NCBI GenBank assembly: GCA_017548525.1
Contig: JAFYZV010000230.1
Span: 2,981-66,980, forward strand
Origin: Prevotella sp.
GTDB taxonomy: Bacteria; Bacteroidota; Bacteroidia; Bacteroidales; Bacteroidaceae
Length of the DNA: 64,000 nt
Direction: 5' to 3'
In this document: one piece after another, positions 15,834 to 20,392 of the stretch
Layout of the letters: each line of letters begins with the position of its first letter
How positions within the stretch are numbered: the first letter of the stretch is position 1
Position numbers and translations under genes: made by a program
The notes under the pieces: generated by a model
Told to the model about the DNA's origin: nothing
Databases searched by the model: none
Seen by the model: only the letters and a program-made list of their open reading frames with translations

Positions 15834-15879
15834 TGAATCATCTGTTTATTGACAAATATCTTTCTTTGGTTGTTTAACG

Positions 15880-16023
15880 ACATCATATCGTGTACCTAAC
15901 GGCACACATCCCCCTCCATCATTATCCTCCCAGCCATTTCGAAACACCTATCGGCGTTTCTGTATGGCTGGTCATGACGTGGTGTGGGTGGAGAGCCTGC
16001 CTTTAGGTAGGCGACATGGTATG
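15880..16023. repeat. Long imperfect palindrome (~140 bp)
   Basis: Symmetric pairs gaaacacc/ggcgtttc, ccagccat/atggctgg, tacctaacggca/tgcctttaggta and catatcg/cgacatg about a centre at ~15950. Confidence 0.7.
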
Positions 16024-16140
16024 TTATATGTGCGGAGGTATGGTTTCATGTGTACGGAGGCATGGTTTCGCGGGCGTAGATGTGGTGTTTGTCGGGAACA
16101 GATATGGTATTCGTCGGGAACGGATGCGTCCTTTGTAGCC

Positions 16141-16246
16141 TTGCGGCTATAGCCAAAAAGGTTTGCGCCTATAGTCAAAAAGGTTTGCGGCTATAGTCAA
16201 AAAGGTTTGCGGCTATAGCCGAAAGGGTTTGCGCCTATAGCCAAAA
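16141..16246. repeat. 22-bp tandem repeat, ~4.8 copies
   Basis: Unit ttgcgsctatagycaaaaaggt at 16141, 16163, 16185, 16207 and 16229, with core palindrome ggctatagcc. Confidence 0.95.
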
Positions 16247-16409
16247 TAAAACAGGAAAAACCAATGCCCTATCGCAGATGTGGGCAAGAAGAACCGTTAA
16301 TATATGGGTTATTGGGTTAATAAATATTAAAATGGGGGGTAATTTTGCCAATTGTTATAATATGTGTAAATTTCGGCATTAATACAATAACCTAACAAAT
16401 ATTGAGCTT

Positions 16410-17678
16410 ATGAAAAGAATAGTTTTATTTTTCGCGACCCTGTGGCTGGGAGTCATGGGCGCGAGTGCGCAAGGCTATCGCTATGACGTGAACAACGACG
16501 GCAGCGTGAACATCTCTGATGCCATCGCGGTGGTAAACAAGATTCTCGGCAAAGACAACCCGGGCGACGTGGGGGGAGGCGGCGAGGCTGTCGATCTCGG
16601 CTTGCCCAGCGGCACTTTATGGGCAAGCTGCAACATCGGTGCGAGCAAGCCCGAGGATGCTGGAGGTTATTATGCCTGGGGAGAGACGGCGGAGAAGGAC
16701 ACATACCTTTCAGCAACCTACCAGTATTACCAGAACGGCAGCTATGTGGCTATCGGCACCGACATCAGCGGCACGGAGTACGACGTGGCGACCGCCCTGT
16801 GGGGCAGCGACTGGTGTATGCCCACCGAGGAGCAGATGCAGGAACTGATAGACGGGTGTAACTCTGAATGGACATCCCTCAACGGCGTGAACGGCAGGAA
16901 ATTCACCAGCAAAAAGAACGGCAACAGCATCTTCCTGCCCGCTGCGGGCAACAAGGTGTCCTCCGTCCTCGCCAATGTCGGCAATTATGGCTATTACCAT
17001 ACTGCCACGTTGTCCTCATCGAACCAATCGTGGAACAGGAATTTGCAAATCTCCTCCAGTACTGCCAAGATGGATAACACTTCCCGTTACGGTGGTAAGC
17101 CCGTCCGCGCCGTCCGCGCATCCCATAAGCCGAAGGCGATAGACCTTGGCTTGCCGAGCGGCACGAAGTGGGCGAGCTGTAACGTAGGAGCCTCCAAGCC
17201 TGAGGAATACGGCGAGTATTTCGCTTGGGGAGAGCTTGGGGAGAAGCAGGAATACACCACCCTGGAAAATTACCAGTTCTACGTGAATGGTTCGCATATG
17301 GATTTGGGAGCTGACATCAGCGGCACGAAATACGATGTTGCCCGCCAGAGGTGGGGCGGCAACTGGCGGATGCCGACGAAAGACGAAATCCAGGAGTTAA
17401 AAGAAAACTGCACCTACGAGTGGACCACCTACCAAGGGGTACAGGGGGGGAAGTTTACCAGCAAGAAGAACGGCAACAGCGTCTTCCTCCCCGCTGCGGG
17501 CATCGGCTGGAACAGCGAACTCCTCGGTGCTGGTGGCTGCGGTGGCTACTGGACGTCTACGCTGGACCCGTCGGACTGGAGCGGTGCCTACGGCCTGTAC
17601 TTCGACTCGGACACCGCCTACTGGAGCGACTATGGTCGCCGTGACGGTCGAAGCGTTCGCCCCGTCATCGGAAATTAG
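16410..17678 (+). CDS. Secreted protein: dockerin-like repeat plus two DLGLPSG (DUF1566/FISUMP-like, C-type-lectin-fold) domains; probable DGR target
   Basis: Signal peptide; DVNNDGSVNISD Ca-binding loop; two copies of (V/I)DLGLPSGTxWASCN(I/V)GA...FLPAAG...VRxV; visibly more GC-rich than its flanks. Confidence 0.85.
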   Translation: MKRIVLFFATLWLGVMGASAQGYRYDVNNDGSVNISDAIAVVNKILGKDNPGDVGGGGEAVDLGLPSGTLWASCNIGASKPEDAGGYYAWGETAEKDTYLSATYQYYQNGSYVAIGTDISGTEYDVATALWGSDWCMPTEEQMQELIDGCNSEWTSLNGVNGRKFTSKKNGNSIFLPAAGNKVSSVLANVGNYGYYHTATLSSSNQSWNRNLQISSSTAKMDNTSRYGGKPVRAVRASHKPKAIDLGLPSGTKWASCNVGASKPEEYGEYFAWGELGEKQEYTTLENYQFYVNGSHMDLGADISGTKYDVARQRWGGNWRMPTKDEIQELKENCTYEWTTYQGVQGGKFTSKKNGNSVFLPAAGIGWNSELLGAGGCGGYWTSTLDPSDWSGAYGLYFDSDTAYWSDYGRRDGRSVRPVIGN

Positions 17679-17726
17679 TGCATCCTTGAAATCCGAAAAA
17701 TTTCGATTTGATGGATTTCACATATT

Positions 17727-17758
17727 GCGTTGCGGCATCAAGAGCCGCAACGCTTTTT
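17727..17758 (+). terminator. GC-rich hairpin with T5 (terminator and/or DGR cis-acting stem-loop)
   Basis: gcgttgcggc-atcaaga-gccgcaacgc-ttttt. Confidence 0.75.
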
Positions 17759-17799: not shown

Positions 17800-20304
17800 C
17801 TATTTCACCACCATTTTCTTGCCAGCAACGATGTAAATGCCTGGGTGCAATCCCGTGCGTAGGTCGAACACATTGACTTGCCTCTTCACACAACGGCCAT
17901 TCAAGTCGAAGACATCCACGAGGGTGGTCTTCTCCGCAGGGTCGGTATATGCCATCTCAATGCCATCGGGATGGTCGTCGTCAAAGTGCATGTCGTCTTC
18001 GTCATCCGTAGGAGTGCTGATAGGATATGCTTTTAGATTACTATAAATGAATTGTGCGCGTTCCAACAGCCACTTTTTCGCATGATTGGTAGAAGTTGCA
18101 TAGTCTTTTCCGTCTCCCCACATCGTAGCATTATTCAAGAATGACGGGTTTGCGTATGTATAGTATGCATCGCAATAGTCGATGAGTTCGTCCAAATGGT
18201 TATTCATGAAGTCTGTCCATACACGGTAATAGGTGCGGTCAAGGGTTCGGCTGACATACCGCAGGTCGTAGATGAACTGCTTTCCCGCCATGTTGAAGAT
18301 GCTGTTGTAATAGTCGGCGGTGGCATCGGCGGTGCAATATTGCCTGTTCGTTTCATATCCATACGCCCAATCCAAATCCCAGACGGGACCAAAGATGAAC
18401 TTACTGTTTGTTGACCCTACAACTTCCTTATAGAGGAACGTGCTCTTGGGATGTTGGAGTTCATAATTAACAATCAACTCGTTGACGAGTAGGTAACGCG
18501 CCAACATGTCAATATCCACAAACGTATAGAAGTCAAAACCGTTCTTCAGCCTTCGCATGAAGGTGTTGAAGTCTTTCTCTATCATCTCCTGGGTGATGCC
18601 CGTGGGGTCTTCGGCGAAGTTGGGGAACTTGATATTGACTGGCAAACTGTAATCGGAGGAACGAAACTTATATGTTTCATCAAAGTAAGTGTCAAGTTCA
18701 AGCAACGCCGTGCTGTCTTCATTGGCTACGTCAATGCTGTTGTTGGAGATGCCAATCTTCTCGGTGAAGTTGTAACTACCTCGATAATTACCGTTGATAT
18801 ATAGTTCCACAGGCACGATATGGTTGGCTCCAGCGGCTTCCACAAGGCAAGCCGCTTTCATGCCGATGGCGTTGCTGAGCATGGAGCCACCCTGCTTGTT
18901 TGCCAACAACACCCAGCTCTTCCCGTTGGTAAGTCCAAATGGCTTCTGTTTAGATGCAAACTTCAATCGATAAGGATTCTTATCCCATGGTTGGTTGCTC
19001 CAACTGCTGTTGCCACGCCCCTTGATTTGTACGGGAGTAGAAGGCATGTCGGGATAGACACCACCGCCGTCAATAGTGATGGTTGCATCTAAATAGTAAT
19101 CCTTACTTGATATCATTTCACCCGTATTGGTGTAAATTTCCACACGTGGAACTCTACTCGTCTCCAAGTCGGTGAGCCAATCTACATGGACACGATAGTG
19201 ACTACCATAAGGTTGCATTCCGTAACTATACTCGGCGGGCTCAATGATTTCAGGTCCATGATAGTCAGGATTCTCATCGGTACGCCATAATTGGAACTCG
19301 GCAAACACGAGATAGAGACGATGAGCAGATGCTTGTAGAAGAATGCGCAAATGACTATATTCCTGTCCTAAATCAATCACAGGACTTTTATAAGTAGCTC
19401 CCGCGTATGTGGGCAAATCGTCTGCTTCCGTAAACTCGCGAATCTGAGTCCATTGTTGTCCGTCATTAGAAGCAAAGAGCGTGAATTTCAAGGGCCAATA
19501 AGACCCTGTTGTACGTGTGACATAACTGAAACTGACACGCCGCAGACTCTCTTTCAGGGCAATGTCGAGATATGGCTCCGTGGCATAAATGATTGGTTTC
19601 TGGTCTGAGGGAACATCCCACGTACTATGATAAATCGTCGATGTGTTTCCATCAAGCATTTGTTCAAAACCTTCACCATCCTTTCCTGGCAGATTAGATG
19701 AGAATTGGTCGGCGGTAAGTGCCACCTCTGTCGTAGAGAACTGATCCACGGCATCGCTCCACACAGCCTCTTTCACCAATGTCTTCTTGAACTCTCGCCA
19801 GCCATAACGACCTACGGTGTAAATCAAATCCTTATCGAATTGATGACGATTCACCTTACTCTGTTGCCGTTGTCCATTCATATAGACACGGTCAGTCTCC
19901 TTATTGAGTTGGAATGAAGGTGTGAGCCATTTGCCAATAGCACCCACGCGAGCCGTGATAAGTGAATCACCAATGATGTCTGCCTCTACATCCGTAAATA
20001 CTTGATCATTGTATTTGTTATTAAACTTGAACGATGAGAACGACGGCATGTTTTGCGGACGATGATAGCAAATAGAATCTATACGGTCGAGATCATAACA
20101 ATAGGTTGTGTCATTGATGACGGTAATGCGCAATTGATTGTTCGCTTCCACCTGACTTTCAATATACGAAGAAGGAAACACATCAAGTCGATAGCCATTG
20201 AAATAGACATAAAGCGAGTCTCCTTCTGCTGCCATTGACAACATGGGCAACATCATTAAAATTGCCGCGAGTTGCTTTCTTATGTATAAATATATCGTTT
20301 TCAT
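17800..20304 (-). CDS. CotH kinase family protein with a discoidin/F5-8-like domain and T9SS C-terminal domain
   Basis: KGRGNSS, KNPYRLK, YRGSYNFTEKI and GPVWDLDWAYG; tail VFDLNGR...PGIYIVAGKKMVVK; start at MKTIYL with signal peptide. Confidence 0.85.
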   Translation of the reverse strand: MKTIYLYIRKQLAAILMMLPMLSMAAEGDSLYVYFNGYRLDVFPSSYIESQVEANNQLRITVINDTTYCYDLDRIDSICYHRPQNMPSFSSFKFNNKYNDQVFTDVEADIIGDSLITARVGAIGKWLTPSFQLNKETDRVYMNGQRQQSKVNRHQFDKDLIYTVGRYGWREFKKTLVKEAVWSDAVDQFSTTEVALTADQFSSNLPGKDGEGFEQMLDGNTSTIYHSTWDVPSDQKPIIYATEPYLDIALKESLRRVSFSYVTRTTGSYWPLKFTLFASNDGQQWTQIREFTEADDLPTYAGATYKSPVIDLGQEYSHLRILLQASAHRLYLVFAEFQLWRTDENPDYHGPEIIEPAEYSYGMQPYGSHYRVHVDWLTDLETSRVPRVEIYTNTGEMISSKDYYLDATITIDGGGVYPDMPSTPVQIKGRGNSSWSNQPWDKNPYRLKFASKQKPFGLTNGKSWVLLANKQGGSMLSNAIGMKAACLVEAAGANHIVPVELYINGNYRGSYNFTEKIGISNNSIDVANEDSTALLELDTYFDETYKFRSSDYSLPVNIKFPNFAEDPTGITQEMIEKDFNTFMRRLKNGFDFYTFVDIDMLARYLLVNELIVNYELQHPKSTFLYKEVVGSTNSKFIFGPVWDLDWAYGYETNRQYCTADATADYYNSIFNMAGKQFIYDLRYVSRTLDRTYYRVWTDFMNNHLDELIDYCDAYYTYANPSFLNNATMWGDGKDYATSTNHAKKWLLERAQFIYSNLKAYPISTPTDDEDDMHFDDDHPDGIEMAYTDPAEKTTLVDVFDLNGRCVKRQVNVFDLRTGLHPGIYIVAGKKMVVK

Positions 20305-20392
20305 CTTGTAAATACCATGTTTATGAACCGTAAACCATATATTTAGAATCAACAAACACCCTATTTATCTGCATCACCACTTAACTCCCTAA

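What the first reader, a model, noticed from the sequence alone, without database searches (positions are those of the whole stretch)
17502..17758. Orphan DGR variable region: probable remote target of a diversity-generating retroelement
Seen: the last ~55 codons read IGWNSELLGAGGCGGYWTSTLDPSDWSGAYGLYFDSDTAYWSDYGRRDGRSVRPV. At nearly every non-scaffold position the codon is NNC or NNT (ATC, CTC, GGT, TGC, GGC, GAC, AGC, TAC, ACC, TAT, CGT). Two hairpins follow the stop (17687-17720 and 17727-17753). Established: DGRs mutate template adenines, so AAC/AAT codons become NNC/NNT in a C-terminal CLec-fold segment ending in a GxxVRxV-like motif, often with a downstream stem-loop. Inference: the template would read roughly NNAGxNGNYW..TLNPSNxNNAYNLNFNS.NANWNNNNRNNGQSVRPV. 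No reverse transcriptase, avd or AAC-rich template was found in this window, so the gene would be diversified in trans. That would make it a hypervariable, dockerin-displayed surface binder.
Basis: partly seen in the sequence, partly recalled or inferred. Interest (0 to 1): 0.82.

Follow-up and report, generated by a model that had tools for sequence, protein, structure and literature searches.

The report
Orphaned DGR-diversified lectin gene in Prevotella
The end of this gut-bacterium gene carries the codon pattern and the short DNA tag of a target of a diversity-generating retroelement (a natural hypermutation machine), but no working machine was found in this genome, so it is likely a frozen leftover, one of about a dozen scattered copies, and not a gene that is being mutated today.

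Summary
Window 17502-17666 is the binding end of a predicted C-type-lectin domain. 22 of 23 codons facing template AAC/AAT end in C/T, against 55% background. Real AAC-rich templates of this DGR subfamily exist in relatives; against the nearest, 34 of 52 adenines but only 25 of 128 other bases differ. A tag after the stop, GTGCATCCTT, copies part of the cassette's template-to-RT spacer. But the 87%-complete assembly has no template, RT or avd, only two cassette relics. True partners differ at 0-4 non-adenine bases, not 25. Four near-complete relatives hold 3-39 copies and no RT hit. Best reading: an orphaned, probably frozen DGR product in a dispersed, recombining family, as described in cyanobacteria. 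'Dockerin-displayed' is unsupported: half a dockerin, no cohesin found. The spacer echo is a testable clue to homing. The scan had not reported this on other DNA.

The parts
16410..17678 (+). Gene for a 422-aa protein: signal peptide, half dockerin, two tandem C-type-lectin-fold (Lcl_C/DUF1566-type) domains
16410..16469 (+). Likely Sec signal peptide (hydrophobic helix ending ASA-Q, no lipobox cysteine); read by eye, no predictor run
   Evidence: sequence; helix 2-20
16482..16559 (+). Single dockerin-type calcium loop-helix (half a dockerin, model positions 2-27 of 57)
   Evidence: E 1.7e-4, 22.2 bits, cut-off 22.9
16950..17114 (+). Internal, strongly decayed VR-like segment of domain 1; no tag after it
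   Evidence: 51-62 non-adenine differences from the other VRs
17502..17666 (+). Terminal variable region (VR) of domain 2
17667..17678 (+). IMH-like end, where target and template part in intact cassettes; slightly changed here against paralogues
   Evidence: inference from alignment
17678..17687 (+). Tag GTGCATCCTT, identical to the spacer arm behind the template in intact cassettes; likeness to paralogues ends right after it
17687..17720 (.). AT-rich interrupted hairpin specific to this locus; not the family hairpin
17727..17753 (+). GC-rich hairpin with T run: predicted intrinsic terminator between this gene and the convergent CotH gene
15913..16409 (+). Upstream non-coding stretch with five 22-bp tandem units; 91% identical to the upstream of paralogue G000:C43

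Best explanation
This is the variable region of a predicted exported lectin-fold binding protein whose binding-site codons were likely written by a diversity-generating retroelement in the past and are probably frozen now, because no template, reverse transcriptase or avd was found in the genome. Shown: the fold match, the codon pattern, the tag shared with intact cassettes in relatives, about 15 paralogous domains and two broken cassettes in the same assembly. Inferred: a cassette (partner gene, target, avd, template, RT) once sat in this lineage; target ends were copied, with the tag, onto other genes; the machinery was deleted; copies now drift and swap domains by recombination, leaving a fixed set of binders with different specificities. 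Whether this copy was mutated in place or inherited its VR ready-made is not resolved. Its ligand and location are untested; without lipobox or secretion tail it would default to the periplasm.
For: Fold: Lcl Z 8.6, Mtd 7.3, TvpA 6.7, TaqVP 6.6. Nearest template (G321): 34 of 52 adenines against 25 of 128 other bases differ, 17 of the 25 at third codon positions; four of five cis pairs differ at 0-1 non-adenine bases, the fifth at 4. Tag after 33 of 45 terminal and 0 of 15 internal segments, 3.9% of random windows. No RT, no RT or avd by tblastn, no adenine-only partner: best 13-14 non-adenine mismatches in 75, control 0. Relics: C214 target fused to spacer and the first RT codons (82% over 176 nt to L048); C53 partner gene, target, tag, interrupted hairpin, no avd; G350:C71 with truncated avd. 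G245, G355, G235, G350 (97-99% complete) have 20, 11, 3, 39 domain matches and no RT hit. Window VR is the most drifted of 16 (25-33 non-adenine differences), lacks the family hairpin and is identical in runs X1 and X2.
Against: The assembly is 86.8% complete in 255 contigs, so a cassette may be unbinned. A strain in run X3 is 97% identical downstream but under 80% over the 162 nt of the VR. In 3 of 10 clusters of close homologues the terminal segment is replaced wholesale (distance 0.20-0.33 against 0.006-0.056). The tag stays exact even on drifted copies, which suggests it is still used. X1 and X2 are one study, and contigs drop rare variants.
Confidence: 0.62

Rival explanations
1. Live remote target: an intact DGR elsewhere in this strain, missing from the bin, still rewrites this VR in trans.
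For: Incomplete bin; divergent VR in X3; remote targets are known for non-phage DGRs (PMC5758913, passages); stem sequence of the target hairpin may vary (PMC3240598, abstract).
Against: G000's VRs differ from each other at 9-43 non-adenine sites and the window's at 21 or more from every other, so one template cannot serve them under the near adenine-only rule. Family hairpin absent; neither local hairpin has the GC stem plus 4-nt GRNA loop that BPP-1 needs. In G321 and G149, which have a cassette, the dispersed copies tested were not cognate (24-26 and at least 21 non-adenine differences). Identical in X1 and X2.
Confidence: 0.2
2. Visiting machine: the tag keeps the copies targetable, and a DGR of this subfamily that passes through the lineage from time to time rewrites them in bursts, after which they freeze again.
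For: Alleles come as discrete, wholly different VRs shared among samples; the tag is conserved on copies in RT-negative genomes; the family hairpin shows two-sided changes by eye in C43, G149, G228; Bacteroides DGRs travel on conjugative elements (bioRxiv 2024.11.15.621889, passages).
Against: No mobility genes were seen beside the three cassettes read; no related template in the phage or viral collections; the same VR peptide sits on different genes (P0171 and P0016), so recombination alone can yield such alleles; this copy has lost the hairpin.
Confidence: 0.14
3. Ordinary lectin-like family with a variable binding loop under selection and no DGR history; the codon pattern follows from Tyr/Asp/Ser/Gly content.
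For: Distant paralogues and domain 1 also give 17-18 of 23 pyrimidine-ending codons; adenine bias against a non-cognate template is not independent of where the binding loops lie.
Against: The non-coding tag is shared with the template spacer and cis targets of intact cassettes; cassette relics in the same genome.
Confidence: 0.04

Closest known systems
Dispersed paralogues and remote variable proteins of cyanobacterial DGRs (PMC7517822, passages seen)
   Same: CLec variable domains duplicated across the genome, grafted to other N-termini, with remnant template likeness and no RT nearby; the authors suggest removal of the machinery once a variant is selected.
   Different: Those genomes still hold a DGR; here none was found. 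Bacteroidota host, signal peptide plus half dockerin, tandem CLec domains, and a spacer-derived tag.
Treponema denticola DGR with remote targets, TvpA (PMC5758913, passages; fold 2y3c)
   Same: CLec fold, C-terminal VR, several scattered genes.
   Different: Remote targets there differ from a resident template only at adenines; that test fails here. TvpA is a lipoprotein (recalled); this protein has no lipobox.
Bacteroides DGRs of the human gut (bioRxiv 2024.11.15.621889, passages)
   Same: Same order, C-terminal CLec VR on exported modular proteins.
   Different: Pilin-type lipoprotein targets on conjugative elements or prophages; the main text has 0 hits for 'Prevotella', 'dockerin', 'remote', 'orphan'.
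Bordetella phage BPP-1 DGR (PMC3240598, abstract and section 10; bioRxiv 2023.10.23.563531, parts 1-2 of 5)
   Same: In related cassettes the RNA just after avd pairs with the spacer, like the avd:Sp 'cPRT Stop' duplex, beside a template:spacer duplex (inferred from complementarity).
   Different: The parts read do not describe a copy of the spacer arm behind the VR; BPP-1 relies on IMH plus a GC hairpin with GRNA loop.

Membership tests
DGR target (active, cis or remote) | C-terminal CLec-fold domain bearing the VR | tested here: met
   Pfam Lcl_C E 4.6e-9; model pLDDT 89; Z 8.6 Lcl, 7.3 Mtd; Foldseek gave no match at E 0.001
DGR target (active, cis or remote) | Cognate template in the same genome, differing almost only at adenines | tested here: not met
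   None in the 86.8%-complete assembly; nearest foreign template has 25 of 128 non-adenine differences
DGR target (active, cis or remote) | DGR reverse transcriptase and avd in the genome | tested here: inconclusive
   No hit, only an RT stub on C214; the bin is incomplete
DGR target (active, cis or remote) | IMH and downstream GC-rich hairpin | tested here: inconclusive
   IMH-like end and tag present; family hairpin replaced; local hairpins are AT-rich or terminator-like
DGR target (active, cis or remote) | Adenine-site hypervariation among reads or strains | tested here: inconclusive
   Identical in X1 and X2; divergent in X3 but letters not visible; only contigs available
DGR-derived orphan paralogue | Remnant adenine-biased likeness to a related template at the gene's 3' end, no machinery nearby | tested here: met
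DGR-derived orphan paralogue | Cis signature shared with intact cassettes | tested here: met
   Tag in 3 of 3 cis targets of the 4 cassettes whose spacer has it
Cellulosomal dockerin protein | Complete duplicated dockerin | tested here: not met
   Only positions 2-27 of 57
Cellulosomal dockerin protein | Cohesin partner in the genome | tested here: inconclusive
   0 PF00963 matches beside 43 dockerin matches, incomplete bin

The most novel reading that the evidence does not exclude
In this DGR subfamily the target carries, right after its stop, a copy of the spacer RNA arm that flanks the predicted priming site. The primed RNA-cDNA could grip both DNA strands there (spacer RNA on one, cDNA on the other), making the 10-base tag a portable homing signal. 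Gut Prevotella would then keep a standing library of dozens of tagged lectin genes that a passing DGR refreshes, without keeping the mutator.
Probability: 0.15. Interest if true: 0.75.

Novelty: new member of a known kind. Interest (0 to 1): 0.4.

Why it matters
DGR surveys need an RT and template nearby (PMC8144416, passage), so orphaned targets are not counted. Here they appear far more common than cassettes in one gut genus, which suggests DGRs leave lasting families of binders after they are lost. The spacer-derived tag gives a simple marker for such genes and a cheap mutational test of cDNA homing, a step called poorly understood in the 2024 structure preprint.

Tried and rejected
Cognate template: exact-pattern scans of genome contigs (0; 2, both templates of other organisms), metagenome contigs (0 and 0), viral contigs (0; 2 chance hits inside a phage gene), phage records (0), 401 genus genomes (2, one known, one chance). 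Exact patterns miss a template with one changed base, so these show little. One search gave 18 of 401 genomes, only 5 of them templates. In one search only 2 candidates per genome were scored, so 28 of 401 is a floor. In one search one of three RT queries was out of frame and is not counted. One search crashed at its sixth cluster and was finished; short fragments were left out, three other representatives were added to cluster 1 and one to cluster 5. The protein is a singleton at 90%, so no direct alleles. PDB sequence search and Foldseek found nothing. The spacer echo was not seen in the 13 other cassettes with a visible cis VR (common stretch 4-8 bases). No complex prediction was run.

Full report
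Observation. The segment ends a 422-aa ORF at 16410-17678 (+), between a GDSL-family gene and a convergent CotH gene. Named homologues are Prevotella hypothetical proteins; the runs that hold the stretch are animal-gut metagenomes. Pfam gives Lcl_C at 315-419 and a sub-threshold half dockerin at 25-50. The model (66 sequences, pLDDT 89) has two like domains; both align to C-type-lectin folds, led by Lcl (Z 8.6, rmsd 2.7, 102 aligned) with the DGR proteins Mtd (7.3), TvpA (6.7) and TaqVP (6.6) in the list. These Z values are middling, but nearly all top rows share the fold. The codon claim holds: 22 of 23 against 55%, with the caveat that decayed copies reach 17-18 of 23.

Related cassettes. 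A template-end motif over 401 genus genomes gave 18 hits, 5 of them templates. G321:C125 has the full layout: a small partner gene with a T9SS tail, target, avd-like ORF, AAC-rich template, spacer, RT cut by the contig end. Five cis pairs differ at 0, 0, 1, 1 and 4 non-adenine bases. The window VR against the G321 template differs at 34 of 52 adenines and 25 of 128 other bases (p 7e-9), 17 of these at third positions. It is kin to that template, not its partner.

The tag. Of 26 loci examined, 20 held a template; in 4 the spacer contains TGCATCC, and in those 4 its reverse complement lies just after avd. I infer this is the equivalent of the avd:Sp duplex of BPP-1 (preprint 2023.10.23.563531, parts 1-2 of 5 read). 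In the 3 of these 4 where the cis target is visible, the motif also follows the VR. The 13 other cassettes with a visible VR show no such echo. Behind the tag the G321 target and several paralogues have a GC-rich hairpin; the window has unrelated sequence: an AT-rich hairpin and a terminator-like stem. BPP-1 needs a GC stem with a 4-nt GRNA loop (PMC3240598, abstract and section 10).

Own genome. tblastn finds the domain on 12 contigs; 15 domains were aligned. No PF00078 match, no hit better than E 0.4 for two RT and three avd queries, no adenine-only partner for any of six VRs. C214 has partner gene and target running straight into a spacer and the first RT codons, then nothing RT-like in the remaining contig: avd and template look deleted by target-template recombination (inference). 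C53 has partner gene, target and tag, with the hairpin interrupted and no avd in the last 1 kb. G000's VRs differ among themselves at 9-43 non-adenine sites.

Relatives. Of five genomes picked for having such VRs, one had an RT match (G149, whose template is of another type); G245, G355, G235 and G350 (97-99% complete, G350 10% contaminated) had none but 20, 11, 3 and 39 domain matches. G350:C71 keeps a truncated avd and no template. G245 and G355 carry genes of 606 and 237 aa beside the same two neighbours, with different VRs. So the orphan state recurs and is not only a binning gap.

Variation. X1 and X2 (one study; X1 may be the source) match the VR exactly. An X3 contig matches 17651-18300 with 19 differences and leaves 162 letters over the VR unlaid at 80%; X3 pieces over the rest of domain 2 also differ by about 10% with gaps while a domain 1 piece differs at 7 of 220, so a domain swap fits. 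In 10 clusters of homologues the terminal segment is replaced wholesale in 3, mildly more variable in 4, and no more variable than the rest in 3; one VR peptide occurs on two different genes.

Location. A signal peptide is likely by eye; there is no lipobox cysteine and the C-terminus is the VR, not a secretion tail. The genome has 43 dockerin matches and no cohesin match. Surface display is unshown.

Literature. Dispersed paralogues with remnant template likeness are described in cyanobacteria (PMC7517822, passages) and remote targets in 10 of 372 DGRs (PMC5758913, passages). Six searches (listings and abstracts only, except the papers named) showed no paper on this Prevotella family or on the spacer echo. 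No supplements were opened; DGR tables there may list such targets. Most subscription journals are not searched.

Verdict. A real DGR-derived variable region, most likely orphaned and frozen (0.62); live in trans 0.20; refreshed by a visiting DGR 0.14; no DGR history 0.04. New member of a known kind, interest 0.4, with the spacer echo as the part most worth an experiment.

Noticed in passing
window 16140-16250 and 15836-16409: Five tandem 22-bp units in the upstream non-coding stretch; parts of this stretch match 35 other contigs of the genome, and 529 nt are 91% identical to the upstream and start of paralogue C43.
   Followed up: partly
G000:C214:9489-10812: DGR relic: partner gene, target fused to spacer, RT stub. 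A BlaI-like and a BlaR-like ORF (labels recalled from the sequence, not searched) lie 1.4 kb upstream.
   Followed up: partly
G000:C53:23070-23160, C47, C214, L048: A short palindromic REP-like element sits in the hairpin behind the C53 and C47 targets and in the spacer of C214 and L048; also on C98, C206, C236.
   Followed up: no
L044:4256-4729, L045, L046, G000:C53, C214: A 157-160-aa signal-peptide gene with a T9SS C-terminal match precedes the target in three intact cassettes and both relics; it may be an export partner.
   Followed up: partly
G000 whole assembly: 43 dockerin-like matches and no cohesin match.
   Followed up: no
window 17800-20355 (-): 851-aa CotH kinase-family gene with an F5/8 domain, convergent on the target. 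The Bacteroides DGR preprint lists CotH-like variable proteins; no link shown here.
   Followed up: no
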